A stretch of DNA of 64,000 bases from a virus. The notes below the pieces were generated by a model. It made no database searches, was not told the origin of the DNA, and was given only the letters and a program-made list of their open reading frames with translations. The DNA lies in IMG/VR virus record IMGVR_UViG_3300050014_000899; one strand, 5' to 3'. The translations under genes and the position numbers were made by a program. The stretch's first letter is position 1. Every line of letters begins with the position of its first letter. Below, in pieces: positions 11,552-35,211 of this stretch.

Positions 11552-11552
11552 A

Positions 11553-18441: not shown

Positions 18442-19068
18442 ATGCCCGAGAGAGGTTTGGTTACACAAAGTGGAAAATCATATAATTATCTGGAAAATAT
18501 AATTTTTCAGGATGGAGATATTTTAATAACGAAAAATGAGTTTCCGTCTAAGGATGCTATAGTTCTTTTTCTAATCGAGTATCTGGAAGAATGCATGGAA
18601 GAGGTAAATAGTCACAGTCAGCAAAATATAATGTTTGTTCTTAAGACCTGGTTTCGATTATTTGACCGATCGGATCTACAAGAATATGATGTCCAATATA
18701 TGTATCAATTATATGATGACTTTATAGTAGGAAATGAATTTCCCAAATTAAGCTTGGAGTTAGCGGGATCTTTTGTTACCGGAATTACTAAAATAAAAAA
18801 TCAAGCTATAGAGTATAATTTTGGTCAATCGGGACGTATTTTCAGCTATAAAAAAATCACGGAAACTATTAGGGAAAGAATAGAGGATATAAAAAGGGGT
18901 CAAATCATAGATAAAATTCAGGATACCTCCTTTTCATTGGATGGAAATATAGGAATGGTTATTAAAAGTTCGACAGAAATTTGGATTAAATTTATTCTTT
19001 CTGAAAATTCTCGACCGTATAAGCCATATGACGATTTGGAAAATCTTATGCCTCTGAATAGTTGGTAA
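18442..19068 (+). CDS. hypothetical protein
   Basis: 208 aa ORF. Confidence 0.65.
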   Translation: MPERGLVTQSGKSYNYLENIIFQDGDILITKNEFPSKDAIVLFLIEYLEECMEEVNSHSQQNIMFVLKTWFRLFDRSDLQEYDVQYMYQLYDDFIVGNEFPKLSLELAGSFVTGITKIKNQAIEYNFGQSGRIFSYKKITETIRERIEDIKRGQIIDKIQDTSFSLDGNIGMVIKSSTEIWIKFILSENSRPYKPYDDLENLMPLNSW

Positions 19069-19649
19069 TGTATTCGGGACTTATATATTGTGCTACCTCT
19101 CCTTCGAATAAAAAATATTATGGAAGAACCCGAAAATCTCTTCAATCAAGGATAAAGATCCATTTAAAAAATTCAAAGAATCAAAGATTTCCAAATGCTC
19201 TTCGAAAATATGGAAACTCCTCTTTTAAGTGGAATGTTATTGAGTCTTTCGAATTTGAATCAGAGAAAGAACTTGAAATAAAGCTCAATGAACGCGAAAC
19301 CTTTTGGATTAAAACGGATAAAACACTAAATCCAGAATATGGATACAATATGACTGAGGGCGGAGATCGAGGCCCTGCGAAAGGGATAAAACACAAAAAT
19401 CATACCCAACAGCATCGAGATCATATATCTGAAAGCAAAACAGGCATACCCATGGCCGAAAATACAAAAAAATTGCTTAGTTCTTTAAATATGGGGCATA
19501 CAAGACAATCAAACGGTCTAAATTCTCAAAAAGGAAAGAAATGGATGATAAATCCAGATAGAACACAAAGATCCCTGATTAAAATAGAGGAAACTCAAAA
19601 ATATCTGACGCTAGGTTGGGGTTTTGGAAGAAAACACATTAATAGATAA
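19068..19649 (+). CDS. GIY-YIG homing endonuclease
   Basis: MYSGLIYC..KKYYGRT, GYNMTEGG; paralog of 20153..20944. Confidence 0.9.
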   Translation: MYSGLIYCATSPSNKKYYGRTRKSLQSRIKIHLKNSKNQRFPNALRKYGNSSFKWNVIESFEFESEKELEIKLNERETFWIKTDKTLNPEYGYNMTEGGDRGPAKGIKHKNHTQQHRDHISESKTGIPMAENTKKLLSSLNMGHTRQSNGLNSQKGKKWMINPDRTQRSLIKIEETQKYLTLGWGFGRKHINR

Positions 19650-19685: not shown

Positions 19686-19949
19686 AGTGTAGTAAGTGAT
19701 TTGCTTTACTTCGTACTAATTCTTGGCTTCGGTCAGGACTATGGGAGGATTCCCAGACACTATGTGATTATACTCATGTAAACGGCAAGTGACATGAGAA
19801 GCTTCGGCTTCAAAAAGGTCAGGAACTCAGAAAGGCTGGCAGGACGAATAAAATAAATCCTGTATCTGGGATGGTTTGGCAAGGTCCAGGTTTAAAAAAA
19901 TCTTCTAGAGATAGGAACTCTTAAAAACGCGCAACACCGGATTCTCACT
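19686..19949 (+). ncRNA. large Y-RNA-like structured RNA (copy 1)
   Basis: AGTG-TAGTAA..TTTACTTCG..GATTCT-CACT scaffold around many UUCG/GNRA hairpins. Confidence 0.65.
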
Positions 19950-19957
19950 CAATTTTA

Positions 19958-20081
19958 ATTATTAGCGATAACAAAACATATCTAGCACTGCTGCTCAACA
20001 TCACAGTTCCTATTTGCGGTCATTATGGGGTGAATTAAATTCACGGACAGAAGATTACGTAGGGTTGAGCCCGCTAATAAT
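19958..20081 (+). ncRNA. unknown structured RNA
   Basis: ATTATTAGCG/CGCTAATAAT and GCTCAAC/GTTGAGC helices. Confidence 0.5.
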
Positions 20082-20087
20082 ATAATC

Positions 20088-20132
20088 AAAAGGATCCATA
20101 GTTGGTGTTTAGCATTGACTATGGATTTTTTG
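20088..20132 (+). terminator. intrinsic terminator
   Basis: ATCCATAGTTGGTG/CATTGACTATGGAT stem followed by T-tract. Confidence 0.8.
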
Positions 20133-20152
20133 TGAATATATAAAATAAAACT

Positions 20153-20944
20153 ATGTATTCAGGACTTATCTATTGTATTGTTTCCAAAGATGGAAAAAAG
20201 TATTATGGAAAAACTATTCAGCCTTTTAAAATAAGAATTAAACAGCATTTAAATGAAAAAAGGAATTGCAAAATTTCTAATGCTTTAAAAAAATATGGAA
20301 AAGATGAGTTCACCTATAATATAATAGAAAAATATGAATTCATATCAAGAGAGGAACTAATTGATAGACTTAATCAAAGAGAAATATATTGGATAGATAA
20401 GGATCAAACTCAAAAAAATGGATATAACATGACTCCAGGAGGGGATCGGGGGTCAGATACAAGAGGAATGGTAAAAGTTATAGATCCAAATTCAGGACAA
20501 AAATATTTTGTATCCACTAAAGATTCTAGATATATTTCGGGACAATTAATTTCTGCAATGAAAGGATTTTTATCTGTTAAAGATTTAGATGGAATAAGAT
20601 ACAGAATAAAAATTGATGACCCTGAATATTTAAAAGGAGTCTTAGTTTCTGTAAATAAAGGAATTGGAAAGGTTTCCGGAATGAAAGATAAAAAAATGTC
20701 GGAAGAGGCAAAAGAAGAAATCCGAAAAAAACGAGAAGGGACAAAACTTTCCGATATAACAAAATATAATATTAGTAAATCTAATTTAAATCATAAACGA
20801 ATGTCAGGAGAAAAAAATTCTCATTATGGTAAAAAATGGATACTAAATCCTTCTAAAACTCAAAGAATTTTAATAGAAAAAGATAAAGCAGAAGAATATA
20901 TTGCGTTAGGATGGGTTTTTGGCAGAAAAATAATTAATAAATAA
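20153..20944 (+). CDS. GIY-YIG homing endonuclease
   Basis: MYSGLIYC..KKYYGKT, GYNMTPGG, NUMOD3. Confidence 0.9.
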   Translation: MYSGLIYCIVSKDGKKYYGKTIQPFKIRIKQHLNEKRNCKISNALKKYGKDEFTYNIIEKYEFISREELIDRLNQREIYWIDKDQTQKNGYNMTPGGDRGSDTRGMVKVIDPNSGQKYFVSTKDSRYISGQLISAMKGFLSVKDLDGIRYRIKIDDPEYLKGVLVSVNKGIGKVSGMKDKKMSEEAKEEIRKKREGTKLSDITKYNISKSNLNHKRMSGEKNSHYGKKWILNPSKTQRILIEKDKAEEYIALGWVFGRKIINK

Positions 20945-20964
20945 TCAAATATAAGTTCTTTTAA

Positions 20965-21208
20965 ATCTATAGTAAGTTGGCGTGATACATCGTTCGAGGA
21001 GCAATCCTCACAATAAAAATTCTTGCGTAAGCAAAATCAAAATTGATTCTACGACGATTGTCAATACAGAGCAGGAATTTTCCCACTGGGTTCGACAGCG
21101 AAAGCTTCGGTAGTTAGGCGACTTAATCTCGTACTAACCATTTTCCTAGGACGTGACGATCAAGAGAAGTTAAACTCTTTAAAATCTCACCCCACAATTT
21201 TCTTGGAT
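20965..21208 (+). ncRNA. large Y-RNA-like structured RNA (copy 2)
   Basis: ATCTA-TAGTAA..TACATCG..AATTTTCT-TGGAT scaffold. Confidence 0.62.
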
Positions 21209-21213
21209 AACAC

Positions 21214-21729
21214 TTAAAAGCCAGTAGGTCGCATAGCGTCCACTGGTTTTTTTATGGACTGTCGGAAAGCTCTTATTTTATCTTTAGCTTTATCAGAATG
21301 ATGCTGAAGCCCCGTTTTTCCTTTATTCCACGGGGTTCTTCCTAGATATGGTTTTAATTGTTCGTCAGATAGTTTTATTCCTTTATTCCAAGGCGAAATT
21401 CCTTTTTTTGCATCTTTCATTTTATCTAAAGATTCCCCATTAAGAAAAGTATATCCTCCTTTTGGATGAAGATTATATCCATTGGGGAATAAGGTATTAA
21501 ATTGATTAATATATCTTTCTTGAGCATCAAAAGCTTCTTGACGGGTTTCAAACCATTCTAATATTTCTTTAAAAAAGTTTTTCCTTTGATACTTTTTTAT
21601 AGCATTTTTTAGATAGGGTTTTCCGCTCCCAATATAATGGCATCTCTCATTCAATGTTATTGTATGATCCCCAATATATTGTTTCCCTGTAATTAAATTA
21701 GTAGTAATATAAACGTAATGCTCTTTCAT
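21214..21729 (-). CDS. GIY-YIG homing endonuclease, inverted orientation
   Basis: YVYITTNLITGKQYIGDH, PNGYN, PWNKG repeats; ATATATAAAAT upstream on the minus strand. Confidence 0.9.
   Translation of the reverse strand: MKEHYVYITTNLITGKQYIGDHTITLNERCHYIGSGKPYLKNAIKKYQRKNFFKEILEWFETRQEAFDAQERYINQFNTLFPNGYNLHPKGGYTFLNGESLDKMKDAKKGISPWNKGIKLSDEQLKPYLGRTPWNKGKTGLQHHSDKAKDKIRAFRQSIKKPVDAMRPTGF
21217..21253 (+). terminator. intrinsic terminator for the upstream RNA transcript
   Basis: AAAAGCCAGT..ACTGGTTTTTT. Confidence 0.65.
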
Positions 21730-22018
21730 ATTTTATATATCTCCGCATAGCGTCTAAATTTTTTATTTTCAAATTTAACGAATTAATTGAGATATTTTTC
21801 GTATATTTGTCTATAATAATTATGAACGACTTTTTAAAATCTGGCTTTAATCTAAAGAAAACTTCAGGAAGAACCTTTCTAACTGATAAGAGAACTGTTT
21901 GTATCAAACATCAGGATGGTCATGTAACTGAACATCGAGGAATTAGTGATCCGTGGAGATATATTGCTAAAGTCAAAAAAGAAATGGGCGTACAAGACGC
22001 CTGGATAAAAGACGAATA

Positions 22019-22621
22019 ATGAATTTCACAAGAGGCGGCGACGTCAAAGAAACCCTAGGTATTGGTCGAGATGCAATTCTAAAAGAAATTGGGGGAGTTG
22101 TAATAAATGATAAGGGTCAAATTGAAAGATGGAGAACCACTGAGAAATGGGATGCTACGGGGTTACTTTCTGGATTGGAAGATTTGGAAAAGGAGGAGAA
22201 AGAACTTGCAGAAAATGATTTTAGAAAGAAAAATGTCATAATTGGAGTTAGTGATGGGACTTTTACTATCCTACGAAACCGAATAAAATATGATGGCCCA
22301 GATAAAGGAGATGAAAAAGATCTAATTACAGTTCTTCTTGATTTACGAGATTGTTTTCGTAAATGGGGAATTGATAATGGTTTCTTTCCCTTCGCTAAAA
22401 AGGTAGCTGCTACAACTATTGGATTGGATCTTGTGTCGGTGGTCCCCATGTCTGCTCCATCAGGTCAATTGGCATATTTAGATTATGAATACGGCAAAAA
22501 GACTCTAGCAAAAAGAGTTAAGAAAATTTTCAAAAATATTTATTGGTTTTTCTACGTAAAAACAAGAAAATTTTACTATTTGTACTTGAATAAATACATC
22601 AATAAAAACAAACAAAAATAA
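22019..22621 (+). CDS. protein carrying a major-capsid (Gol-region) fragment
   Basis: FFPFAKKVAATTIGLDLVSVVPMSAPSGQLAYLDYEY aligns with the MCP at 62822. Confidence 0.75.
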   Translation: MNFTRGGDVKETLGIGRDAILKEIGGVVINDKGQIERWRTTEKWDATGLLSGLEDLEKEEKELAENDFRKKNVIIGVSDGTFTILRNRIKYDGPDKGDEKDLITVLLDLRDCFRKWGIDNGFFPFAKKVAATTIGLDLVSVVPMSAPSGQLAYLDYEYGKKTLAKRVKKIFKNIYWFFYVKTRKFYYLYLNKYINKNKQK

Positions 22622-22651
22622 CTAATTCAAAAGTAAATTTTTTACACATTA

Positions 22652-23821
22652 ATGGAAGAAAAAGATTCCTCTAAAGAGAGGCAGACTCAACAGCTAGAGC
22701 AAGTTGATTCTACCGAACCTCCCCTCGTCTGCTCTAACCAATCTCAGGTATTCAAAAACAAATTTTATCCTAATGCAACCCAACAAGAATGGGGTGACTG
22801 GAAATGGCAAATCAGAAATAGCATTACCAGCTATGAAGAATTAGCCAGAATTTTCGGTTCATCTGATTGCGAAGTTTCGGAAGATATAAATTTGCCTCTC
22901 AGAATTACTCCTTATTACGCCAGTACTATCAAGGATCCAAAAGGTCCGATTGGAAGATGCGTGATTCCCTCAAGCAATGAACTTATTGTAACAGAAAATG
23001 AAGAAAATGATTCTTTGCATGAAGAACAATACAGTCCTGTTCCGAATATCGTTCATCGTTATCCAGACCGTGTTCTATTCTTGACGACTGATTTTTGTTC
23101 ATCCTACTGTCGTTATTGTACCCGATCTCACATGGTTTCTCATCAGGAGATAACCAAAAAATTATGGGATAAGGGTATCGACTATATTCGCCAACATCCA
23201 GAAGTAAGAGACGTTCTCTTATCTGGTGGGGATTTTTTAACAATGAGTGATGAATCTATTGAGTACTTATTGAAGAATATCAGAGCTATTGAACACGTGG
23301 AATTCTTACGTATTGGAACTAAAGTTCCGGTTGTACTTCCACAAAGAATAACTCCAGAACTCGTCAACATGCTCAAAAAATACCATCCATTGTTTATGAG
23401 TATTCACTTTTCTCATCCGGATGAATTAACTCCAGAAGTAAAAGAAGCTTGTGAAAGACTTGCCGATGCAGGTATCCCATTAGGGTCCCAAACTGTCTTG
23501 CTGAAGGGTGTTAACGATGATGTAGCGACCATGAAAAGTCTTATGCATGGTTTACTTAAGATCAGAGTTCGACCTTATTATATCTATGCGTGCGACCTCG
23601 TACCGGGAACTTCCCATTTTAGAACTACAATCAATACTGGGCTTCAAATTATCCAGGGATTAAGAGGTTGGACAAGTGGTTATGCAGTTCCGCAATTTGT
23701 TATAGATGCTCCTGGCGGAGGTGGAAAAATTCCATTACTTCCAGAGTATTTCTTGGGTATGGATGGAAACAAAGTAAGACTTCGTAACTACGAAGGAAAA
23801 GAGTTTATCTATACGGAATAA
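22652..23821 (+). CDS. kamA: KamA-family radical SAM aminomutase (lysine 2,3-aminomutase-like)
   Basis: HRYPDRVL, CSSYCRYCTR, LLSGGD, QTVLLKGVND, DAPGGGGKIP. Confidence 0.93.
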   Translation: MEEKDSSKERQTQQLEQVDSTEPPLVCSNQSQVFKNKFYPNATQQEWGDWKWQIRNSITSYEELARIFGSSDCEVSEDINLPLRITPYYASTIKDPKGPIGRCVIPSSNELIVTENEENDSLHEEQYSPVPNIVHRYPDRVLFLTTDFCSSYCRYCTRSHMVSHQEITKKLWDKGIDYIRQHPEVRDVLLSGGDFLTMSDESIEYLLKNIRAIEHVEFLRIGTKVPVVLPQRITPELVNMLKKYHPLFMSIHFSHPDELTPEVKEACERLADAGIPLGSQTVLLKGVNDDVATMKSLMHGLLKIRVRPYYIYACDLVPGTSHFRTTINTGLQIIQGLRGWTSGYAVPQFVIDAPGGGGKIPLLPEYFLGMDGNKVRLRNYEGKEFIYTE

Positions 23822-23892
23822 CCTGTTAAAATATTGTTAAAAAAGATCCCAAATTATTTCATAGTTTGGGATTTTTTATGTACTTTTACTTT

Positions 23893-24246
23893 ATGAACTT
23901 TCAAAGAATAGATAACGATCCATTAAGAACCCTCGACATAGGGAAAAGAGCTCTTAAAAAACAAAAGATTCAGAGTCTTATGTATAAAGAGGGATTTGTA
24001 ACCCAAGGACAATTATGGATGGGCATGGGAAATATTATAGATCTCATCAAAGAAACTAAAGATGGTGAATATATTGAGATTTTTAAAGAAGATTTCTTAC
24101 AATATTTTGCTATTCCAGTTAGAAAGGGTGAAAAATGGAGATGGGAACAATTATATGAAATCATACCCCAATTTCCGAATAAAGGGGTTTTTAAAGTTCA
24201 TTCTAACGTAATGGAAATTGTTGCAGCTTTTGCAAAACTTTCATAA
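23893..24246 (+). CDS. hypothetical protein, FxR..DP..xIG family
   Basis: MNFQRIDNDPLRTLDIG. Confidence 0.65.
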   Translation: MNFQRIDNDPLRTLDIGKRALKKQKIQSLMYKEGFVTQGQLWMGMGNIIDLIKETKDGEYIEIFKEDFLQYFAIPVRKGEKWRWEQLYEIIPQFPNKGVFKVHSNVMEIVAAFAKLS

Positions 24247-24333
24247 TCCCGTTAAAATATTGTTAAAAAAGTCCTGAATTATTTTTTAGTTTGGGATATT
24301 TGTCGTACATTTACCGTATAAACCACAACCACT

Positions 24334-24849
24334 ATGGAACTTATTATCGACAGACTCAAAAAAATCAAAGAATTAGCTGAACGTGGAGTAGAAGGTGAAG
24401 CCGCTGAAGCTAAAAGAAAACTGGCAATTCTGTTGATGAAATACGGATTGAAAATTGAAGATCTTGAAGATGTTAAAGTATATCAATACAAATTCAAATA
24501 TATTACCATTCAGGAAAGACAGATAATTCTTCAGTGTATTGCTCAGGTAACTGATGATCCTGAACTTACATATTCACATTATAAAGACAAAAAGAAAGAA
24601 TTCTTTGTTAAATTAACGGAATGGCAATATGCGGAAGCAAAAGCCATGATCGATTTCCATATCAAGTTATTCAGAAAAGAACTCAAAGCTCAGTTGGCTG
24701 CTTTAACCAGTGCATATTGTGCAAAGCATTCTTTATTTGCAGCTAGTGCAAAAAGTGGCGGATCAAAATTAACCCCCGAAGAATTAGCTCGTTTATTGGC
24801 AATCTATTCTGCTTTGGATGATAAAATTTTCAGAAAACAATTAGCATAA
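24334..24849 (+). CDS. DUF2786-like protein
   Basis: RLKKIKELAERGVEGEAAEA..LLMKYGL. Confidence 0.7.
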   Translation: MELIIDRLKKIKELAERGVEGEAAEAKRKLAILLMKYGLKIEDLEDVKVYQYKFKYITIQERQIILQCIAQVTDDPELTYSHYKDKKKEFFVKLTEWQYAEAKAMIDFHIKLFRKELKAQLAALTSAYCAKHSLFAASAKSGGSKLTPEELARLLAIYSALDDKIFRKQLA

Positions 24850-25382
24850 TGTTCTCCAGAGAAATGACCCCAATGACTCTTGGCATCGGAATTGAAGCCA
24901 AGATACAAGCAAGAATGGAAGGAATGGGTAAACTCAGAAAGGGGTTACCGGATTCTATTGTATGGTCAATTCGTCATAATGAACGTGGGTTTTTTGAATA
25001 TTTTTTAGCTCAGGAAGGAGCAATTGAAAAATGTTTGGAAAATTCAGATATTTCAAAAGAGATAGTTCATAAAAATGCTCATTGGGCTTTAAAGAGTATT
25101 GTGGAAAAATCCCCGGATAAAGCATCTATGAAAATTTTACCTAAAGTCATTGTTAGAAATAACGGTAATATGCTTCAGCTTCTTTTAGAAAAATGGGGAG
25201 AATACTATAAGACCATGCAAGATTTCAAAAAGAGGTTATTTATGGCACTGTCTAATATGGATGGAACCAAAAAACTAAAACCGCCGACGATTAAGTCTTT
25301 GGAATACTTTTTTACTCTTGAAGAAATAGACGATATTCTGATCAAAAGAGGGCAGGCTCATGTAATAATTAACCTATCATGA
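24849..25382 (+). CDS. hypothetical protein, FxR..P..xIG family
   Basis: MFSREMTPMTLGIG. Confidence 0.6.
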   Translation: MFSREMTPMTLGIGIEAKIQARMEGMGKLRKGLPDSIVWSIRHNERGFFEYFLAQEGAIEKCLENSDISKEIVHKNAHWALKSIVEKSPDKASMKILPKVIVRNNGNMLQLLLEKWGEYYKTMQDFKKRLFMALSNMDGTKKLKPPTIKSLEYFFTLEEIDDILIKRGQAHVIINLS

Positions 25383-25720
25383 ACTTTGAAAGAACAAATA
25401 ATCCTTTAAAATCTCTTGATATTGGAAAAGATAGAATGCTCAAAATTGGGGATTCTTTTACGGTTCATATCGGAGATATGAAAGTTCCAGTTGTTGCTAC
25501 TTCTGATGAAACCAGAAATAAGCATTTCTATATGGAGAAAACCGATTGTTTTGGTCAAAAAGAATATACCGGATATGAGGTTCGACAGGTGGGGTACAAT
25601 GGATCTTTATACATCGGAATTGCAGAATGGAGAGAAAATTGTGAACACCCCAAATGGGAACATACAGATCATCCAGAAGATTTTCGAAAAATAAATCCAG
25701 AAGATGGAAGTTATATGTAG
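25379..25720 (+). CDS. hypothetical protein, FxR..NP..xIG family
   Basis: MNFERTNNPLKSLDIG. Confidence 0.65.
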   Translation: MNFERTNNPLKSLDIGKDRMLKIGDSFTVHIGDMKVPVVATSDETRNKHFYMEKTDCFGQKEYTGYEVRQVGYNGSLYIGIAEWRENCEHPKWEHTDHPEDFRKINPEDGSYM

Positions 25721-26075
25721 ATTTGAACGTAGAGCTGATCCGATTAAAACATTAGATATTGGTAATGCTAGGATTCTTCGAAAAGGAGATATGTTTGAGG
25801 TTACCCTTCCCTATTTACTTTGTGATTGTGATTGTGATGGGCAAGGGTATACTCATAGATGCATTGCAGTCAAGGATGAAAAAACAATGATTCTGATGAA
25901 TATAGGAAAGTATAAAATTCCTCAATTGGTGACTTCCGAAAACAGGGACAGAATTAAAGATTATACTGAACGTAGGGAAATAGAATTTTATCTTCTTAAT
26001 GTTGGATATGGAACAGCATATTTTGATGAAAAATTGAATATTTGGAAAATCGAAGAAAATGAATCGATAAGATGA
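25704..26075 (+). CDS. hypothetical protein, FxR..DP..xIG family
   Basis: RFERRADPIKTLDIG. Confidence 0.65.
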   Translation: MEVICRFERRADPIKTLDIGNARILRKGDMFEVTLPYLLCDCDCDGQGYTHRCIAVKDEKTMILMNIGKYKIPQLVTSENRDRIKDYTERREIEFYLLNVGYGTAYFDEKLNIWKIEENESIR

Positions 26076-26253
26076 ACCTTTAACGAACTTTTAACGTTTA
26101 AAATTTTTTTACTAAGAAAACTTTTCGTATAATTGCACTATTAAACATAATCTGCTTGTGTCTTTGTGAGCAAGGAATCAATGATTACCGGTCTGGATTT
26201 TAAATTCAGCGGCGGGAACTAACAGCAAGCAGATTTCTTTTTATTTTTGTTTA

Positions 26254-26805
26254 ATGGAAAATTTAATTTATGGTCTTTATTGTCCTATAAGAAAAAAACC
26301 AGTTTATGTTGGTCAAACTACTAAAGGAATTGATAGACCCTTTCAACATATAAAAGAACGATCTCATAGTAAAAAAGTTAATGAGTGGGTTCATGAATTA
26401 AAGAAGGATGGATTAACTCCAATAATAGTAATTTTGGAGACTTTTGAAGATTCTTCATTGTTGGATGATAAAGAAAGATTTTGGGTTCAGAAATTTTTAA
26501 ACGAAGGCGAATTACTTTTAAATCAACAATTAGTATCCCCTTTAATTTTAACAGTAGCTGAATTTTCAGAACAGAGGGAAACAACATTTAAAGATGAATT
26601 AGCTTTATTTGTTAAGGGAAGGAGAAAAATTTTAAATTTAACTCAGCAAAGATTTTGTGAAAAGACTGGGATTGGATTAAGATTTCTTCGAAGTGTTGAG
26701 CAAGGAAAATTCAAAAAAGATAATTTTAGTACGAAATCAATTGAAACTGTACTTTATTATTTAGGAGCAAGATTAACTATAGGACCTTATAAAAAAGAAG
26801 AATGA
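26254..26805 (+). CDS. GIY-YIG-like domain fused to XRE-type HTH
   Basis: LIYGLYCP..YVGQT and LTQQRFCEKTGIGLRFLRSVEQG; paralog at 45944. Confidence 0.8.
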   Translation: MENLIYGLYCPIRKKPVYVGQTTKGIDRPFQHIKERSHSKKVNEWVHELKKDGLTPIIVILETFEDSSLLDDKERFWVQKFLNEGELLLNQQLVSPLILTVAEFSEQRETTFKDELALFVKGRRKILNLTQQRFCEKTGIGLRFLRSVEQGKFKKDNFSTKSIETVLYYLGARLTIGPYKKEE

Positions 26806-27410
26806 AATTATTTCTCTTAAAAAGAAAATTCGATGGATTTGATCACTGGGATGTTACAATGGGTCTCGTGGTCGCTGCAGATAATGAAAATGATGCTTGG
26901 GAAGTTAATGGAGCAATCAATTTCAATCTTGACCGTCAAGAGGTAGAAATAACAGAATTAGGGGGAGCAAACCCAAACATTGAAAGAGGAATTATTTTGG
27001 AAGATTATAAAAGCTAAATAAGATGTTAACAGAAAAAAATACCGTACTTTTACCTCTTGAAGATTATAATGATCTTAGAGATTTTAAACAGAATCTTGAA
27101 AAAAATAATTCTGCTCGAATTACAGGAGGCAGATACAGTGGTGGAAACTCTTACACTTTTGTGTCTACAGAAGAAACGGTAAAATTGGCTACAAAATTTA
27201 ATGATGAGCTGATTAAGGAAAATAATGAATTAAGATCTAAAGTTTCAGAATTGCAAACTTTGAAGGATCTTCCAAAACCGGCACCAGTACCGTTAAACAC
27301 ATACCAACTTAATGAACTCAAAAATATGACAATTTGGGAGTTCAGAAAATGGAAAAAACAAAAATAAAAATAATTTTACATTAAGTTAAAACTTTTCGGG
27401 AAAATCCCGT

Positions 27411-27420
27411 AATATATAGA
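27411..27420 (+). promoter_or_regulatory. putative phage (late-type) promoter for tRNA operon 1
   Basis: AATATATAGA, same ATATATA core seen before the HE genes and the prohead protease. Confidence 0.55.
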
Positions 27421-27443
27421 GAAACTAATAAATACTACAGCAA

Positions 27444-27548
27444 ATGACAAGGCGTGCAAATATGGATAATTTCGTGGATTGGGGCTTTAATAGAGCAGCC
27501 AATAAAGACGGAGGTTATGGATGCCCGCTAAGGTGGAGAGGTATTTAA
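27444..27548 (+). CDS. attenuator leader peptide of tRNA operon 1 (MTRRANMDNFVDWGFNRAANKDGGYGCPLRWRGI)
   Basis: 34-codon ORF between promoter and terminator; codons 3-24 match downstream anticodons; contains antiterminator GGATGCCCGCT (27519-27529). Confidence 0.8.
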   Translation: MTRRANMDNFVDWGFNRAANKDGGYGCPLRWRGI

Positions 27549-27575
27549 CGAGGTAGTTAAAAAAATCTTTATATT

Positions 27576-27608
27576 AAGCGGGATCCCAACAGGTCCCGCT
27601 TTTCTTTT
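27576..27608 (+). terminator. attenuator terminator upstream of tRNA operon 1
   Basis: AAGCGGGATC-CCAACA-GGTCCCGCTT followed by TTCTTTT. Confidence 0.9.
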
Positions 27609-27675
27609 GATTAAAATTATGGAGCTTAAGCTAATCTAGTGAAAGCACTAACTCATCTAAATTTCTCTACTTTAT

Positions 27676-27762
27676 GGTCTCAGGAGCTGCTAGGCGTGGC
27701 TGCCGGACTGTCACTCCGGAACAGGTAAAACTGACAGGTGGGTTCGAATCCCATTGAGACCG
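27676..27762 (+). tRNA. tRNA-Asp(GTC) with long variable arm
   Basis: GGTCTCA/TGAGACC acceptor, CCGGA-CTGTCAC-TCCGG, TTCGAAT T-loop. Confidence 0.85.
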
Positions 27763-27817
27763 CAACAAATATGCTCGGTAAAGCCTCTTATGATAAATAA
27801 CGTAACTGAGTACTTAT

Positions 27818-27894
27818 AGGGGTGTAGTTCAAGTGGTAGAATAGTGGTCTCCAAAACCAAAGGTTTGCGGGTTCGAGTCCTGCCACCCCTGCCA
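27818..27894 (+). tRNA. tRNA-Trp(CCA)
   Basis: AGGGGTG/CACCCCT acceptor, loop CTCCAAA, encoded CCA. Confidence 0.93.
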
Positions 27895-27984
27895 GAGATT
27901 TAGTATATGTGAAGACTTGAAGGACTTTGGCCCTTGATTTTAGAGCTTACATACTTTCATGCCAATGAAGGAACTAAATCACAA

Positions 27985-28058
27985 GGGGAATTAGCTCAGT
28001 TGGCTAGAGCACCTGCCCTGCAAGCAGGGGGTCACGAGTTCGACTCTCGTATTCTCCA
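27985..28058 (+). tRNA. tRNA-Ala(TGC), C33 variant
   Basis: G3-U70; CCTGC-CCTGCAA-GCAGG. Confidence 0.92.
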
Positions 28059-28189
28059 CTCGAGGATGTTCGGCATCATTCAACTCATTCCAAGAAGGTG
28101 TCAAGTAACGAATGTCTAAGTTAAGTCACAGCGGCCGTACCTATAACGGTCAAAATTTCATGCTCGGGCTTTTTTCCGGTTCGTTACTT
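28059..28189 (+). ncRNA. structured RNA containing a 23S rRNA helix 69 mimic
   Basis: GCGGCCGTACCTATAACGGTC at 28131-28151. Confidence 0.65.
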
Positions 28190-28192
28190 TAT

Positions 28193-28265
28193 GCGCTTTT
28201 AGCTCAGATGGTAGAGTAGGTGCCTCTTAAGCATCGGGTCCAGGGTTCGATCCCCTGAAGGCGCA
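28193..28265 (+). tRNA. tRNA-Lys(CTT)
   Basis: Cloverleaf with loop CTCTTAA. Confidence 0.92.
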
Positions 28266-28350
28266 CAAATGAAAGTGAACGGCGCGTCTACCGTTTAATG
28301 ATTACCGACAAGTTGAAAAAGTCTTGGGCTATAACAGCTTTCATTTATTT

Positions 28351-28426
28351 GGGACGTAGGTCAAACGGTTAAGATGTCGGCCTGTCACGCCGTACGGAGC
28401 GGGTTCAACTCCCGTACGTCCCGCCA
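28351..28426 (+). tRNA. tRNA-Asp(GTC)
   Basis: Cloverleaf, loop CTGTCAC, G73-CCA. Confidence 0.93.
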
Positions 28427-28528
28427 ATATGTAGTAAGAAAAGGGTTACATCGGTTATGATTGGTTCGATTCCAATTTTACCCTGCGAAAGCTCGGGTGA
28501 ATTAAAGCTCTTTTCAATTTTCTCATAT
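28427..28528 (+). ncRNA. Y-RNA-like (YrlA-like) RNA with T-arm and closed acceptor cargo
   Basis: ATATG-TAGTAA..TTACATCG..ATTGG-TTCGATT-CCAAT..AATTTTCT-CATAT. Confidence 0.72.
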
Positions 28529-28534
28529 CGTTTT

Positions 28535-28608
28535 GTCGATAATAGTTTAATGGTAGAATATCCAGCGGTAAAACGAGGGAAGGAACCGGTTCGATTCCGG
28601 CTAAGACT
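28535..28608 (+). ncRNA. degenerate tRNA-like element
   Basis: D-arm and T-arm present; anticodon arm and acceptor are aberrant. Confidence 0.45.
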
Positions 28609-28611
28609 CCT

Positions 28612-28761
28612 GGGAGTATAGCTCAATGGTAGAGCAATTGGCTGTCTACAGACAGAAGTGTCTGAATAAAAACTTTAGGTGAAGTCTTATGAAGTTAAAG
28701 GAATCAAAATCCTCTTCATCTGCTAACCAATAGGTTCTGGGTTCGAGTCCCTGTGCCCCCG
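28612..28761 (+). tRNA. tRNA-Asn(GTT) interrupted by a 78-nt anticodon insertion
   Basis: ATTGG-CTGT[28646-28723]TAA-CCAAT; G73. Confidence 0.75.
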
Positions 28762-28828
28762 CTAATAACTAATAAGCAAAAAGATAAAAGTTCGAAACTT
28801 TTTCTGAATATATAGTAAAAGATATATT

Positions 28829-29548
28829 ATGAAGAGTTGCGAAAATTGTCAAAAAGAGCATGAAGGAACTTATGGTTCTGGAAGATTTTGTTCAGCTGAA
28901 TGTGCTAGGGGATTTAGCACAAAAGAAAAACGTTCTTTGATAAATGAAAAAATAAGCAAAAAAATGAAAGGATCGGGACATTCTGATATAAAAATAATTT
29001 GTCCTATATGCCAAACAGAATTTGAAGTTTCATGGAATAAAAGAAATCAAAAATTTTGTTCACGAAATTGTTCAATGAGATTTTCTAATTCTCAACCAGA
29101 AAATATAAAAAATTTATCTTTAAAAAGAATCAACAAAATACTTAAAGGACAAGTAAATGATTATGGTATAAAGATGATATATAAATTCAAAAATAAGGAT
29201 ATTAAATGCGATTCAAAAATAGAATTTGCTTGTTTAAATTTTTTTGAAACTAAAGAGGCATCAGAGATGGAAAGATGCAATCTAATTATTGAATATAAGG
29301 ATAAAGATAAAATAAGAAGATTTAATCCGGATTTTAAAATAAAAATAGATAATAATATTTATATTGTTGAAGTTAAGAGTTATATGAGTATTAAATCTAT
29401 AAATGAAAAATGGCGAAATTATAATGAATTATCTAAATTGAAAAAAGAAGCTTTAATAAATTTTTGTCAATTAAATAACTATATTCCCTTTTGGTTTACA
29501 AAAGATTTAAACAGAAATTTTTATAATAATGTTTCGGTCGTACTATAA
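28829..29548 (+). CDS. putative homing endonuclease (Zn fingers plus PD-(D/E)xK)
   Basis: CENC..GSGRFCS, FNPDF..IVEVKS; ATATATA promoter. Confidence 0.8.
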   Translation: MKSCENCQKEHEGTYGSGRFCSAECARGFSTKEKRSLINEKISKKMKGSGHSDIKIICPICQTEFEVSWNKRNQKFCSRNCSMRFSNSQPENIKNLSLKRINKILKGQVNDYGIKMIYKFKNKDIKCDSKIEFACLNFFETKEASEMERCNLIIEYKDKDKIRRFNPDFKIKIDNNIYIVEVKSYMSIKSINEKWRNYNELSKLKKEALINFCQLNNYIPFWFTKDLNRNFYNNVSVVL

Positions 29549-29606
29549 TTGGTCAGACTGCACTCTGTTAAAGTGAATAATGTAGGTTCGAATCCTACCC
29601 GAAACG
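29531..29606 (+). tRNA. tRNA-Asn(GTT), atypical D-arm
   Basis: GTTTCGG/CCGAAAC acceptor, CACT-CTGTTAA-AGTG, T-arm. Confidence 0.75.
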
Positions 29607-29680
29607 CCGCGCCGCCCAAAGGACGGATGCCCTGGTCACACAAAACCGTATTTGTGCAACTCACCTACGGGGTGAGTATT

Positions 29681-29917
29681 GCCCTGGTAGTTTAACTGGA
29701 GGAGGAACATGAAGTTATTAAATGCTCTCAACACTCAGCGCTGAGATGTTGGTCAAAGAGACATCAGACCTGATAAAAAAGTTAGGGAGGTGCAAAGGCA
29801 TTTATTAAAGAATGGTGGAATAGCTTGCCATCCAAATTTAATTTATGCTGGTAATAGACATTCCGAGAATTCTGGATTCGTTCAGAGGTGTGGGTTCGAT
29901 TCCCGCTGGGGGTTCCA
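29681..29917 (+). ncRNA. tRNA-like RNA with a ~165-nt structured insert replacing the anticodon loop
   Basis: GCCCTGG plus D-arm at the 5' end; TGAA/TTCA stem; T-arm plus TGGGGGT-T-CCA at the 3' end. Confidence 0.6.
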
Positions 29918-29925
29918 ATTTTAAA

Positions 29926-29998
29926 GTTCTTTTAGCTCAGTTGGAAGAGCGCTTCCGTGACATGGAAGAGGCCGTAGATTCGAGTTCTACAAGGAACA
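29926..29998 (+). tRNA. tRNA-Val(GAC)
   Basis: CTTCC-GTGACAT-GGAAG. Confidence 0.9.
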
Positions 29999-30003
29999 CA
30001 AAC

Positions 30004-30079
30004 AGCGACATAGCTCAGTGTGAGAGCGCTCCCGTTCATAGGGAGAGGTGCGGAGGTTCAATTCCTTCTGTCGCTACCA
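30004..30079 (+). tRNA. Met-scaffold tRNA with loop GTTCATA (formal anticodon TCA, or off-centre CAT)
   Basis: AGCGACA/TGTCGCT-A-CCA; CTCCC-GTTCATA-GGGAG. Confidence 0.65.
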
Positions 30080-30080
30080 A

Positions 30081-30182
30081 GGGAGTATAAGCTGTTAGAT
30101 GCATAAACAGCCATACGGGAGAACGGCGAATTTGGTGCTAAGACCATCATCCGCTGAGAGGGTTCGAATCCCTTTACTTCCA
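30081..30182 (+). ncRNA. tRNA-like RNA with expanded D and anticodon domains
   Basis: GGGAGTA/TACTTCC acceptor and a canonical T-arm. Confidence 0.55.
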
Positions 30183-30247
30183 CGAAATTCACTGTGAAGG
30201 TGAAATTTAATTTTCTTTCCAAAAGTTCGAACATAAGAAAGAAGATT

Positions 30248-30322
30248 TGCGATATAGAGCAGTGTTAGCTCGCTCCCGGGAAAAGGGAGAGGTCGGAGGT
30301 TCAATTCCTTCTGTCGCGACCA
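30248..30322 (+). tRNA. tRNA with GAA (Phe) anticodon on the same scaffold as 30004
   Basis: CTCCC-GGGAAAA-GGGAG; T-arm identical to 30004; CCA end. Confidence 0.65.
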
Positions 30323-30396
30323 GTTCCTTTAGCTCAGCTGGAAGTAGCGCCACCCCTACATGGTGGATGTCATAGGTTCGATCCCTATAAGGAACA
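30323..30396 (+). tRNA. tRNA-Val(TAC), C33 variant
   Basis: CCACC-CCTACAT-GGTGG. Confidence 0.85.
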
Positions 30397-30397
30397 C

Positions 30398-30537
30398 AAA
30401 CTGTAGTAAAACAGCGAGTTACTTCGTATTCCAAACGACTAGTCTAGGTGCAAATCCTGGGTCCCCTGCCAAAATTACTTAGGGGATTAGTGTAATAGAT
30501 AGCACAGTAAAAACACTCAAGTTAAATTTCTCAGTTT
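30398..30537 (+). ncRNA. Y-RNA-like RNA containing a circularly permuted tRNA-Trp
   Basis: Scaffold encloses the 3' half (TTCCAAA..T-arm..GTCCCCT-G-CCA) before the 5' half (AGGGGAT plus D-arm). Confidence 0.78.
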
Positions 30538-30539
30538 AC

Positions 30540-30641
30540 GGGAATGAAACTATTAGGGGGCGGAACCCTTTTATCCACAGTAGGAATAGTGATAAGGAAG
30601 CAGGCCGATCACCTGAGTGAGTTCGATTCTCACCATTTCCA
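30540..30641 (+). ncRNA. tRNA-like RNA (acceptor and T-arm, novel interior)
   Basis: GGGAATG/CATTTCC; GTGAG-TTCGATT-CTCAC. Confidence 0.55.
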
Positions 30642-30699
30642 CTAGTAGACCGTTATAATTTCATAGGACTCACATTGGAGAGTACAGCGTAGAAATTAA

Positions 30700-30773
30700 T
30701 GGGACACATGTTCCAAGGCAAGGCGAATGAGTTTTGCAAACTTGTTGGGAGGTTTCGATTACCTTTGTCTCCA
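30700..30773 (+). tRNA. atypical tRNA-Ala(TGC)
   Basis: G3-U70, loop TTTGCAA, U1/C72 mismatch, unusual D-arm. Confidence 0.7.
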
Positions 30774-30778
30774 CACAC

Positions 30779-30874
30779 TGCGGAAGAGTGAAACGGATAG
30801 AGATTTTAATTAATTTCGCTATCATCCAGGGCTCATAACCCTCGGGATATTGGGTTCGACTCCCATTTCCGCTA
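30779..30874 (+). tRNA. initiator-type tRNA-Met(CAT) with extended D-arm
   Basis: 1:72 mismatch, GGG/CCC anticodon stem, ~20 extra nt in the D-loop. Confidence 0.8.
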
Positions 30875-30880
30875 CTAAAA

Positions 30881-30984
30881 ACAAATGGCAGCACAACACC
30901 TAAAGGGACGCTTTTAAGGTAGTGGCCGAAGCATCGAAAATCAGAAATGACCTGCCGATGTAAAAAACGAATCCGGGCGTTTGT
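30881..30984 (+). ncRNA. unknown structured RNA
   Basis: ACAAATG/CGTTTGT closure, GCATCG/CGATGT helix, possible GGCAG/CTGCC pseudoknot. Confidence 0.45.
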
Positions 30985-30991
30985 TTTATAT

Positions 30992-31078
30992 GCCGTCGTG
31001 CCAGAGTGGCCAATCGGGGAGGGCTCATATCCCTTGGCTTTTATAGCCCCATAGGTTCGAATCCTATCGACGGTACCA
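30992..31078 (+). tRNA. class II (Leu-like body) tRNA with CAT anticodon
   Basis: GCCGTCG/CGACGGT-A-CCA, loop CTCATAT, variable arm GGCT-TTTAT-AGCC. Confidence 0.8.
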
Positions 31079-31094
31079 AATTTAATGTATAAAA

Positions 31095-31601
31095 ATGTAT
31101 TATACAATTTACAAAACTACGAATAAATTTAATGGCAAGTTTTATATCGGAAAGCATCAGACTCAGAAATTAAATGATAATTATTTAGGGTCTGGAAAAG
31201 CTTTGGAACTGGCTATTAAGAAATACGGTAAAGAGAATTTTCAAAAAAGAATTATTTTTGTTTTTGATAATGAAATTTTAATGAATCAAAAAGAAAAAGA
31301 AATTGTTACAGAGAATTTTATATCCAGCAATACAAATTATAATTGTGGGGTTGGGGGAGAAGGAGGAGCTCAATTCTTAAATAAATCTCACTCTGAAAAA
31401 ACTAAAAAATTGCTTGCTGAAAAAGCTAAATTAATAAAGCCCTCTAAAGAAACTAGAGATAAAATATCAGAGGGTAATAGAAAAAGAACATTATCTAAAG
31501 AAACAAGAAATAAACTCTCTCAAAAATCTTTCGAGAGATGGAAAAAATTGCGGGTTGGAGAAAATAGTCATCTCATTGGGCTCATAACCCAAGGTTGCTA
31601 G
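31095..31601 (+). CDS. GIY-YIG homing endonuclease (SegB-like)
   Basis: YTIYKTTN..FYIGKH, YLGSG, NUMOD3. Confidence 0.92.
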   Translation: MYYTIYKTTNKFNGKFYIGKHQTQKLNDNYLGSGKALELAIKKYGKENFQKRIIFVFDNEILMNQKEKEIVTENFISSNTNYNCGVGGEGGAQFLNKSHSEKTKKLLAEKAKLIKPSKETRDKISEGNRKRTLSKETRNKLSQKSFERWKKLRVGENSHLIGLITQGC

Positions 31602-31624
31602 GGCGGTACTAGTGCCCGCTACCA
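31549..31624 (+). tRNA. initiator-type tRNA-Met(CAT)
   Basis: TTGGG-CTCATAA-CCCAA, 1:72 mismatch, divergent T-loop, CCA. Confidence 0.8.
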
Positions 31625-31629
31625 ATTAA

Positions 31630-31741
31630 GCTGTAGTAACTGTAAGAATTACTTCGTTGAGTTCGATTCTCAATTTTCCCGCCAGATTTTAAAGGGAAAA
31701 TCGCCACAAAGGGTGGCATTATTCTTCTAATTTTTCTCAGC
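31630..31741 (+). ncRNA. Y-RNA-like (YrlA-like) RNA with T-arm, acceptor and D-like cargo
   Basis: GCTG-TAGTAA..TTACTTCG-TTGAG-TTCGATT-CTCAA-TTTTCCC..GGGAAAA..ATTTTTCT-CAGC. Confidence 0.75.
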
Positions 31742-31797
31742 GAAAATACATGCCGGATGACCCCCGTTGTATCACGGTGCCGGCTCCAATAAGGTCA

Positions 31798-31870
31798 GAT
31801 CTCGTAGCTCAGTTGGTAGAGCACATCCCTTTTAAGGATGGGGTCCTGGGTTCGAGCCCCAGCGGGATCA
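31798..31870 (+). tRNA. tRNA-Lys(TTT)
   Basis: Canonical cloverleaf, loop CTTTTAA. Confidence 0.95.
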
Positions 31871-31871
31871 C

Positions 31872-31977
31872 AATCGTAGTAATGGAAAGAGTTACTTCGT
31901 GCTAATGGTTAGCAAAATCCTGTTAAGATTACTTCGCGGTTCAATTCCGCCTGTTACCTCTTCCGATTTTCTCGATT
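31872..31977 (+). ncRNA. Y-RNA-like RNA carrying D, anticodon (GTT) and T arms
   Basis: AATCG-TAGTAA..TTACTTCG, D-arm, AATC-CTGTTAA-GATT, T-arm..GATTTTCT-CGATT. Confidence 0.72.
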
Positions 31978-35135: not shown

Positions 35136-35211
35136 GCGCCGGTATCACGCCTCGCTACGAACGAGGAGAAGTGTAATTGGACACATGAGGGTTCGAATCC
35201 CTTTCGGCGTT
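35136..35211 (+). tRNA. non-canonical tRNA-Arg(ACG) with D-loop relocated 3' of the anticodon arm
   Basis: 7-nt linker, CCTCG-CTACGAA-CGAGG, then AGAAGTGTAATTGGACACAT and a T-arm. Confidence 0.75.

What the first reader, a model, noticed from the sequence alone, without database searches (positions are those of the whole stretch)
19686..31977. Family of six Y-RNA-like scaffolds with interchangeable cargo
Seen: six RNAs (19686, 20965, 28427, 30398, 31630, 31872) share the layout closing helix, TAGTAA, helix, TAC(T/A)TCG, cargo, helix, RATT(T)nCT, closing helix. The terminal helices covary (AGTG/CACT, ATCTA/TGGAT, ATATG/CATAT, AAACTG/CAGTTT, GCTG/CAGC, AATCG/CGATT). Cargo ranges from tRNA arms to ~200-nt multi-hairpin domains. 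A 3'-half remnant lies at about 27620-27670. Known: bacterial YrlA RNAs join a Ro60-binding stem (GNCGAA-type motif) to a tRNA-like domain in T, acceptor, D order. Inference: this is an expanded phage repertoire of Ro60-bound tethers or decoys. No Ro60/TROVE gene is in this window.
Basis: partly seen in the sequence, partly recalled or inferred. Interest (0 to 1): 0.8.

Follow-up and report, generated by a model that had tools for sequence, protein, structure and literature searches.

The report
Phage Y RNAs with swappable inserts
Six small RNA genes among this phage's tRNA genes share one base-paired handle and carry different inserts, mostly tRNA look-alikes. In related phages the same handle always sits beside the gene for the RNA-surveillance protein Ro60, so these are a diverged, enlarged version of the known Ro60 partner RNAs (Y RNAs).

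Summary
The 5' signature TAGTAA-N6-14-TACWTCG occurs six times on the + strand against 0.01 expected. Each copy has the matching 3' strand, and the 3' remnant near 27650 is real.

A covariance model built on the handle finds 72 members in related phage DNA. All 15 base pairs show compensatory changes, with 91% of cells paired against 60% in shuffles.

The Ro60 reading is supported by context. In 18 of 21 phage TROVE/Ro60 loci the RNAs flank the gene, and all 62 hits there lie on its strand, mostly within 2.5 kb. In two complete phage genomes they occur nowhere else.

Caulobacter phage CcrColossus, a published YrlA host, bridges the families. It has eight such elements upstream of its Ro60 gene, and one is also matched full length by Rfam YrlA.

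The window's handle (U-AG-UAA ... UUACUUCG) looks like an AU-rich form of YrlA's GNCGAA and YUAY motifs. Inserts include permuted tRNA bodies with a built-in GCCA, a normal-order tRNA body without an acceptor stem, and two unknown ~200-nt domains.

I found no Ro60 gene in the window. Earlier notes of this scan place one upstream, which I could not check. The scan has reported this class before, on this and other genomes. Ro60 binding and function remain inferred.

The parts
19686..19949 (+). E1: handle (P1 AGTG/CACT, U, AG, UAA, P2, UUACUUCG; 3' GGAUU-CU) with a ~212-nt tetraloop-rich insert of unknown kind. It starts 37 nt after the stop of a GIY-YIG ORF.
   Evidence: Full-length alignment to model R2 at 18.2 bits with filters off. 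The insert has no match to E. coli genomes or to other loci.
20965..21208 (+). E2: handle (P1 ATCTA/TGGAT) with a ~193-nt multi-hairpin insert. It starts 21 nt after the stop of a paralogous GIY-YIG ORF.
   Evidence: R2 34.2 bits. No similarity of the insert to E1 or to other loci.
27637..27675 (+). 3'-half remnant of an E4-type element (P2', AAAUUUCU, P1' CTACTT at 27651-27672). No 5' half is present. It lies just after a terminator-like hairpin at 27576-27601.
   Evidence: blastn 87% over 39 nt to the 3' part of L012 4446-4589. Terminator scan.
28427..28528 (+). E3: handle with a permuted mini tRNA body. T arm 28460-28476, 7-bp acceptor hairpin 28477-28483 / 28495-28501, no D arm. It starts directly after tRNA-Asp (ends 28426).
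   Evidence: R2 69.6 bits.
30398..30537 (+). E4: handle with a YrlA-type insert. V hairpin 30425-30437, T arm 30444-30460, acceptor 3' strand 30461-30467, GCCA 30468-30471, acceptor 5' strand 30481-30487, UA, D arm 30490-30505. It starts directly after tRNA-Val (ends 30397).
   Evidence: R2 56.2 bits. Homologue in L012 with compensatory P2 changes.
31630..31741 (+). E5: handle with a minimal YrlA-type insert. T arm 31657-31673, acceptor 31674-31680, GCCA 31681-31684, acceptor 5' strand 31694-31700, D-like arm 31703-31717.
   Evidence: R2 54.1 bits.
31872..31977 (+). E6: handle with a tRNA body in normal order but no acceptor stem. D arm 31901-31913, anticodon-like arm 31916-31930 (loop CUGUUAA), T arm 31936-31950. 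It starts directly after tRNA-Lys (ends 31871) and ends 2 nt before tRNA-Val (31980).
   Evidence: R2 57.2 bits.

Best explanation
The six RNAs are divergent, AU-rich members of the YrlA-type Y RNA family, the noncoding partners of the ring protein Ro60 (Rsr, a TROVE plus vWA protein).

Each has two modules. [quoted passage not shown] By analogy with YrlA and animal Y RNAs, this is the Ro60-binding site. The second is a variable insert that would be displayed from the Ro60 ring.

Shown: the handle is a real, covarying RNA structure. The family is tied to phage Ro60 genes. It connects to canonical YrlA through CcrColossus. The inserts are tRNA bodies in two permutations or unrelated domains.

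Inferred:
- The RNAs are co-transcribed with the tRNA array and released by tRNA end-processing. E3, E4 and E6 abut tRNAs to the nucleotide.
- The 7-bp acceptor hairpins of E3-E5 are cut by RNase P as in M. smegmatis YrlA. For E4 and E5 this would expose the encoded GCCA.
- The phage Ro60 binds the handle.
- The inserts either recruit tRNA- or RNA-binding host factors to Ro60 (as Y RNA tethers PNPase) or act as decoys for them.
For: - Six signature matches against 0.01 expected.
- 15 of 15 pairs covary on 72 members, with shuffled and slid controls far lower. AG:CU changes to GG:CC in 24 members and to GU:AC in 2.
- TROVE genes sit in the contigs of two of the three first relatives found by the RNA pattern alone.
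- In the reverse test from the protein, 18 of 21 TROVE loci have the RNA. All 62 hits lie on the gene's strand, and 41 of 42 upstream ones lie within 2.5 kb.
- Whole-record searches of four relatives (two of them complete, 173 and 434 kb) find hits only around their TROVE genes; the fourth (G001) has one hit and no TROVE gene in the contig.
- The TROVE protein matches full length the solved Thermus phage Ro60 that binds Y-like RNAs (9KOP/9L5Y, E 2e-19; PMC12135203).
- CcrColossus has eight elements upstream of its Ro60 gene aligned full length by my model, with GUGGCG(U/C)AG ... UACUUCG ... UUCCC. Rfam YrlA matches one of them and Gordonia phage Neville's GGUUACUUCC-bearing RNA full length.
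- Rfam YrlA scores 33.8 bits on the tRNA-like part of a permuted element next to TROVE.
- UUAC fits YrlA's conserved YUAY, and the UA between acceptor and D arm is kept (PMC4201824; 10.1101/312249).
Against: - No TROVE gene lies in these 64 kb, and I could not read the rest of the genome.
- Rfam YrlA gives no hit on any of the six elements, even in a 151-nt search of E4.
- The literal GNCGAAN0-1G motif is absent. My mapping AGUAA ~ GNCGA rests on the model's alignment of CcrColossus elements, and Rfam's own consensus draws that motif inside a helix.
- Folding energies are not better than shuffles for E1 and E6.
- The covariation alignment was fitted to the model, and many members are close relatives.
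- There are no expression, processing or binding data.
- The model finds nothing beside the TROVE genes of Vibrio phage phiKT1024, Thermus phiLo or halovirus HGTV-1, so the handle is specific to part of the Ro60 tree.
Confidence: 0.8

Rival explanations
1. The handle is a Ro60-independent processing or stability element of phage tRNA operons, for example a site for an RNase or for another phage protein. It lies near TROVE genes only because those genes sit in tRNA clusters.
For: In the window the elements are embedded in the tRNA array and abut tRNAs. No TROVE gene is in the window. One relative contig (G001, 62% complete) has an element but no TROVE gene.
Against: Whole-record searches of two complete relatives find the RNA only next to TROVE, not at their other tRNAs. 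In L140, L136 and CcrColossus the elements directly abut the TROVE ORF. The handle shares motifs with RNAs shown by immunoprecipitation to bind Rsr (PMC4201824).
Confidence: 0.08
2. They are circularly permuted or split tRNA genes that mature into working tRNAs, as in Cyanidioschyzon merolae. The handle would serve as the end-joining helix.
For: E3-E5 have a T arm, a 7-bp acceptor stem and, in E4 and E5, an encoded GCCA. Relatives carry complete permuted tRNAs with 5-bp anticodon stems and 7-nt loops.
Against: E4 and E5 have no anticodon arm. E6-type members have no acceptor stem. About 25 of 72 members have no tRNA part at all. The handle is not a bulge-helix-bulge motif, and I know of no bacterial or phage tRNA splicing endonuclease. 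The conserved handle residues would be pointless in a mature tRNA.
Confidence: 0.05
3. They are DNA-level repeats spread by the neighbouring homing endonucleases, with no RNA function.
For: E1 and E2 each follow a paralogous GIY-YIG gene (53% identity in the catalytic domain). Other GIY-YIG and PD-(D/E)XK genes interrupt the array.
Against: Compensatory changes in all 15 pairs and strict strandedness show selection on an RNA structure. The primary sequence of P1, P2 and the inserts differs between copies, unlike mobile repeats.
Confidence: 0.02

Closest known systems
YrlA / YrlB Y RNAs of bacterial and phage Rsr (Ro60) loci (Rfam RF02553; Chen et al. 2014, PMC4201824; structure 10.1101/312249)
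   Same: Both have a two-module design: a stem formed by the 5' and 3' ends with a conserved purine-rich 5'-strand motif, then YUAY (here UUAC), then an insert. The T, acceptor-hairpin, UA, D order is found in E4 and E5. A 7-bp acceptor hairpin like that of M. smegmatis YrlA is present. Both are encoded on the Ro60 strand within a few kb (shown here in relatives). More than one Y RNA per genome, with different second modules, is also seen.
   Different: The literal GNCGAAN0-1G is replaced by (A/G)G(U/c)(A/g)A, and UUACUUCG is far more conserved than YUAY. Rfam's model does not detect the six elements. There are six copies in 12 kb, spread through a tRNA array rather than beside Ro60. Some inserts are not described for YrlA: normal-order D, anticodon and T bodies without an acceptor stem, fully permuted tRNAs with anticodon arms (in relatives), and ~200-nt non-tRNA domains. 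GCCA is encoded rather than added.
Caulobacter phage CcrColossus Ro60 locus (listed as a YrlA-bearing phage in PMC12135203, citing Chen 2014)
   Same: Eight tandem handle elements lie directly upstream of TROVE, aligned full length by my model. They have the same order: bulged U, GG:CC, loop, P2, UACUUCG.
   Different: It is a GC-rich version (GUGGCGUAG, UUCCC) that is still close to GNCGAANG. Its Ro60 is about 26% identical to the protein family found beside the window's RNA family.
Thermus phage phiLo Ro60 with Yrl1/Yrl2 (PMC12135203; PDB 9KOP, 9L5Y)
   Same: It is a phage Ro60 with phage-encoded Y-like RNAs upstream. The relatives' TROVE protein aligns to it over residues 16-516.
   Different: My model finds no handle element in the phiLo locus. 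The phiLo RNAs are described with a CGAA motif in a large bulge and no tRNA array.
Animal Y RNAs bound by Ro60 (Stein et al. 2005, as cited in PMC4201824)
   Same: Both have a terminal helix with a bulged pyrimidine and an internal loop. Conservation is concentrated on the 5' strand.
   Different: There is no sequence similarity, and the origin of the second module differs.
Phage T4 stable RNAs rnaC and rnaD in the tRNA cluster
   Same: Both are small stable RNAs embedded in a T4-type tRNA cluster next to a Seg homing endonuclease gene.
   Different: T4 rnaC and rnaD lack the handle motifs, and my model does not hit them.

Membership tests
YrlA-type Y RNA (Rfam RF02553; Chen et al. 2014) | Score at or above Rfam's gathering cut-off (69 bits) | tested here: not met
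   No YrlA hit overlaps any of the six elements at gathering or at E<=10. E4 alone in a 151-nt search also gives none. Accepted phage YrlAs score below the cut-off too: Neville 44.1 bits and CcrColossus 42.3 bits.
YrlA-type Y RNA (Rfam RF02553; Chen et al. 2014) | GNCGAAN0-1G motif near the 5' end | tested here: inconclusive
   The literal motif is absent. At the same place the family has U-(A47/G25)-G69-(U66/C6)-(A51/G15)-A67 out of 72 members. CcrColossus elements with GGCG(U/C)AG align to it column by column. This fits a transition-shifted version, but Rfam's consensus pairs the motif differently.
YrlA-type Y RNA (Rfam RF02553; Chen et al. 2014) | Conserved YUAY after the Ro60-binding stem | tested here: met
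   UUAC or AUAC is present in all six. In the family the counts are U72, A68 and C72 of 72.
YrlA-type Y RNA (Rfam RF02553; Chen et al. 2014) | tRNA-like module in T arm, acceptor hairpin, D arm order | tested here: met
   Met for E4 and E5. E3 is partial, with no D arm. It is not met for E1, E2 (no tRNA parts) or E6 (normal order), which would be YrlB-like 'other' Y RNAs.
YrlA-type Y RNA (Rfam RF02553; Chen et al. 2014) | Encoded within about 4 kb of a Ro60/TROVE gene on the same strand | tested here: inconclusive
   Not met inside the window. It is met for the family in relatives: 18 of 21 TROVE loci, with 62 of 62 hits on the gene's strand. Earlier scan notes place a Ro60 gene upstream in this genome, which I could not check.
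Y RNA in the functional sense | Bound by Ro60 in vivo or in vitro | not testable with these tools
   This needs a pull-down or gel-shift assay.
Circularly permuted tRNA genes (C. merolae type) | All tRNA parts present, including the anticodon arm; bulge-helix-bulge at the joined ends | tested here: not met
   E3-E5 lack an anticodon arm. The handle has a 1-nt bulge and an asymmetric loop, not a bulge-helix-bulge.

The most novel reading that the evidence does not exclude
The phage keeps a library of Ro60-mounted RNA baits. Each handle displays a different tRNA face (elbow only, anticodon arm without acceptor, or CCA end without anticodon) or a larger RNA domain. The baits would capture or mislead host tRNA-targeting defences such as anticodon nucleases, or steer Ro60 and an exonuclease to chosen RNAs.

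The displayed loops evolve fast. In four relatives one 144-nt element is nearly identical except for the anticodon loop (AUGAAAA, CAGUAAA, CUCAUAA). That is what an arms race at the bait surface would produce.
Probability: 0.2. Interest if true: 0.8.

Novelty: new variant of a known kind. Interest (0 to 1): 0.58.

Why it matters
Bacterial Y RNAs are known as one or two RNAs next to rsr, with one tRNA-like module whose binding partner is still unidentified. Here the same handle carries many different modules in one phage, and Rfam's model misses the whole branch.

That gives three things:
- A covariance model that finds Ro60 partner RNAs in large uncultured phages.
- A natural module-swap series for asking what the second module of a Y RNA does.
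- A testable link between phage Ro60, tRNA arrays and tRNA-directed host defence.

I found no paper in the searchable library that describes this branch.

Tried and rejected
- Rfam at gathering and at permissive thresholds gave only tRNAs on the window and no YrlA on the six elements.
- T4 rnaC and rnaD were considered as relatives. They have no shared motif and no model hit.
- A D-arm-like hairpin GUAA/UUAC enclosing the P2 5' strand was suggested by a weak tRNA-model alignment. I rejected it because variants on either side are not compensated in the rows I read, while AG:CU and P2 covary.
- Sarcin-ricin, k-turn and UUCG-tetraloop readings of the conserved loops do not fit the opposite-strand sequences.
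- MAFFT could not align the 3' strands. I built a crude model from five sequences and refined it by model-guided alignment.
- Most of the 119 IMG/VR pattern hits were chance. Only L012, L058 and L073 were real.
- Locating the window's own contig failed. An exact 42-mer is absent from IMG/VR and an exact 47-mer from the JGI metagenome contigs.
- The 487-aa ORF at 55586-57049 is not a TROVE protein.
- The E1 and E2 inserts show no similarity to E. coli genomes (including rRNA), to each other, or to the inserts of relatives.
- A promoter and terminator scan was uninformative.
Full report
**What is in the window.** The window comes from a T4-like phage. It has gp23-type capsid and prohead protease genes and several GIY-YIG Seg-like endonuclease genes. 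ARAGORN tRNAs on the + strand. TAGTAA alone is at chance level.

Reading the sequence gives one layout for all six:
- P1 of 4-6 bp formed by the two ends
- an unpaired U
- AG
- UAA
- P2 of 8-10 bp
- (U)UAC(U/A)UCG
- the insert
- an A-rich run
- P2'
- a U-rich loop
- CU
- P1'

The refined boundaries are E1 19686-19949, E2 20965-21208, E3 28427-28528, E4 30398-30537, E5 31630-31741 and E6 31872-31977.

Minimum-energy folds recover P1, AG:CU and P2 for E2-E6 but not for E1. The z-scores are unremarkable, so stability alone proves nothing.

E3, E4 and E6 begin at the base after a tRNA. E6 ends 2 nt before the next tRNA.

**Is it a real RNA family?** A scan of IMG/VR with the 5' signature gave mostly chance hits, but three contigs had several complete elements inside tRNA arrays. 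I built a crude covariance model from five elements. I then re-aligned 42 hits to it and rebuilt the model as R2.

R2 finds 72 elements at E<=0.01 in 24 sources. On that alignment:
- All 15 pairs have changes on both sides.
- 91.0% of cells are paired, against 60.3% in shuffles and 43-52% when partners are slid by 1-3 columns. The 42-sequence alignment gave the same picture.
- The two-pair helix AG:CU is replaced by GG:CC in 24 members and by GU:AC in 2.

The invariant or near-invariant bases lie mostly on the 5' strand: U7, G9, A12 and U-A-C-N-U-C-G. The alignment is fitted to the model and many rows are related, so these numbers overstate independence. The slid controls share that bias and are still far lower.

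All six window elements align full length: E2-E6 and E1 at 18.2 bits with filters off. The claimed remnant is real. 27637-27675 is 87% identical to the 3' part of the E4-type element of L012.

**What the inserts are.** E4 and E5 read T arm, 7-bp hairpin, UA or UC, D arm. This is a tRNA opened at the anticodon stem and closed at the acceptor end, and the hairpin loop begins G-CCA. E3 is the same without a D arm. E6 has a D arm, a 4-bp arm with a 7-nt loop CUGUUAA, and a T arm in normal order, with P2 standing where the acceptor stem would be. E1 and E2 carry 212 and 193 nt of tetraloop-rich hairpins. These show no detectable similarity to each other, to relatives or to E. coli rRNA.

Across the 72 members a simple parser finds:
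- 22 permuted bodies, some with a complete anticodon arm
- 25 placed in the normal-order or T-arm-only class, mostly normal-order bodies without an acceptor stem; a few are mis-sorted (E2 and several permuted elements)
- 25 without a tRNA part, either short A-rich inserts of 17-40 nt or a conserved 137-151-nt insert that lies directly after the TROVE gene

'Interchangeable cargo' is therefore an accurate description.

**The link to Ro60.** A search of the whole contigs behind the three first relatives found TROVE (PF05731) genes in two of them. They encode 525- and 512-aa proteins that are 62% identical. The TROVE domain scores above Pfam's cut-off, and one of the two proteins has a weak vWA match.

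In L058 four elements lie in tandem at 4725-5243. The TROVE ORF follows at 5332-6909, and a large-insert element at 6972-7163, all on one strand. L073 shows the same arrangement.

Starting from the protein instead, 20 IMG/VR loci encode relatives at 29-100% identity, and a 635-kb GenBank phage encodes one at 36%. Of these 21 loci, 18 have at least one R2 hit. All 62 hits are on the TROVE strand. 41 of 42 upstream hits are within 2.5 kb, and 11 of 20 downstream hits are within 1 kb.

Whole-record searches of four relatives find the RNA only around TROVE. Two of those records are complete, at 173 and 434 kb. So the association is with the gene, not with tRNA clusters in general.

The protein aligns over residues 16-516 to the solved Ro60 of Thermus phage phiLo, which binds phage Y-like RNAs (PMC12135203).

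**Relation to YrlA.** Published YrlA features are as follows (PMC4201824; 10.1101/312249):
- a GNCGAAN0-1G motif near the 5' end
- a conserved YUAY at the start of the variable region
- T arm, acceptor hairpin, UA, D arm in that order
- location within about 4 kb of rsr on the same strand
- in M. smegmatis, a 7-bp acceptor stem that is cut by RNase P and receives CCA

Rfam's YrlA model does not hit the six elements. It does score 33.8 bits on the tRNA-like part of the permuted element at L058 4904-4979.

The bridge is Caulobacter phage CcrColossus, cited as a phage with Ro60 and Y-like RNA. With filters off, R2 aligns eight tandem elements at L149 1642-2834, directly upstream of its TROVE ORF at 2881-4290. 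Each reads GUGGCG(U/C)AG ... (U/A)UACUUCG ... UUCCC. Rfam YrlA matches one of these full length at 42.3 bits, and matches Gordonia phage Neville's upstream RNA at 44.1 bits. The Neville RNA contains GGUUACUUCC.

In the model's alignment, the window's U-AG-UAA sits on CcrColossus' U-GG-CGU. So AGUAA corresponds to GNCGA with A for G and U for C, and UUAC corresponds to YUAY.

I conclude that the family is an AU-rich, diverged branch of YrlA-type Y RNAs. The motif mapping is the weakest link, because Rfam's consensus draws GNCGA inside a helix.

R2 finds nothing at the TROVE loci of Vibrio phage phiKT1024, Thermus phiLo or halovirus HGTV-1, nor in the T4 tRNA region.

**How it most likely works.** Shown: the structure, the family, the genomic coupling to Ro60 in relatives, and the tRNA-like nature of four inserts.

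Inferred:
- The RNAs are cut out of the tRNA transcript by tRNA end-processing.
- RNase P cuts the acceptor hairpins of E3-E5. For E4 and E5 that would leave a two-piece RNA held by P1, P2 and the acceptor stem, ending in the encoded CCA.
- The phage Ro60 binds the handle.
- The inserts tether Ro60 to tRNA-binding or other RNA-binding proteins, or act as decoys.

**What I could not do.** The window holds no TROVE gene. I could not fetch the rest of the genome. Earlier notes of this scan say a Ro60 gene with seven more elements lies upstream in the same genome. That is a lead, not evidence.

Other agents of this scan reached the same class assignment on other phage genomes. My tests were run before I read those notes, and they agree.

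**Novelty.** No paper in the held library describes this branch or such multi-insert arrays. The jumbo-phage survey mentions only that some phages have a TROVE protein with a tRNA-like partner. I rate it a new variant of a known kind.

Noticed in passing
L125:4426-4569, L127:4425-4569, L128:4431-4574, L135:4425-4568 (and L124:5771-5912): The orthologous, fully permuted tRNA-type element is almost identical in four related phages except in its 7-nt anticodon loop: AUGAAAA, CAGUAAA (twice) and CUCAUAA. In G002 it is CUGCAAA. The variation is concentrated in the displayed loop.
   Followed up: partly
L149:1642-2834 (Caulobacter phage CcrColossus, NC_019406): Eight tandem handle elements lie directly upstream of the annotated 'RNA-binding protein' (TROVE). 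None is annotated in the record. Rfam YrlA sees two of them.
   Followed up: partly
window 19062-19649 / 19686-19949 and 20153-20944 / 20965-21208: This is a duplicated cassette. Two paralogous GIY-YIG ORFs (53% identity in the N-terminal domain and a similar C-terminal end) are each followed within 21-37 nt by a large-insert handle RNA. The inserts are unrelated.
   Followed up: partly
window 28612-28761 and 47638-47745: The tRNA model matches full length over 150 and 108 nt, which suggests tRNA genes with insertions or introns.
   Followed up: no
window 30004-30079: A tRNA with anticodon UCA, called tRNA-SeC by ARAGORN but of ordinary length. It is a candidate UGA-reading tRNA.
   Followed up: no
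window 28542-28602, 29534-29603, 30702-30773, 35136-35211: Tool-listed tRNA-like stretches, three below and one just at the tRNA cut-off (21-29.1 bits), lie between the handle RNAs and lack the handle. On reading the sequence, the array seems to hold other T-arm-bearing stretches as well.
   Followed up: no
Rfam gives no RNase P match here at E<=1, so this simple test does not confirm it.
   Followed up: partly
window 11472-13520, 7734-8912, 22652-23821, 59139-60176: The phage carries unusual auxiliary genes: a TonB-dependent receptor-like ORF (Plug plus beta-barrel), a nicotinate phosphoribosyltransferase, a lysine-2,3-aminomutase-like radical SAM protein, and a patatin-like phospholipase.
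   Followed up: no
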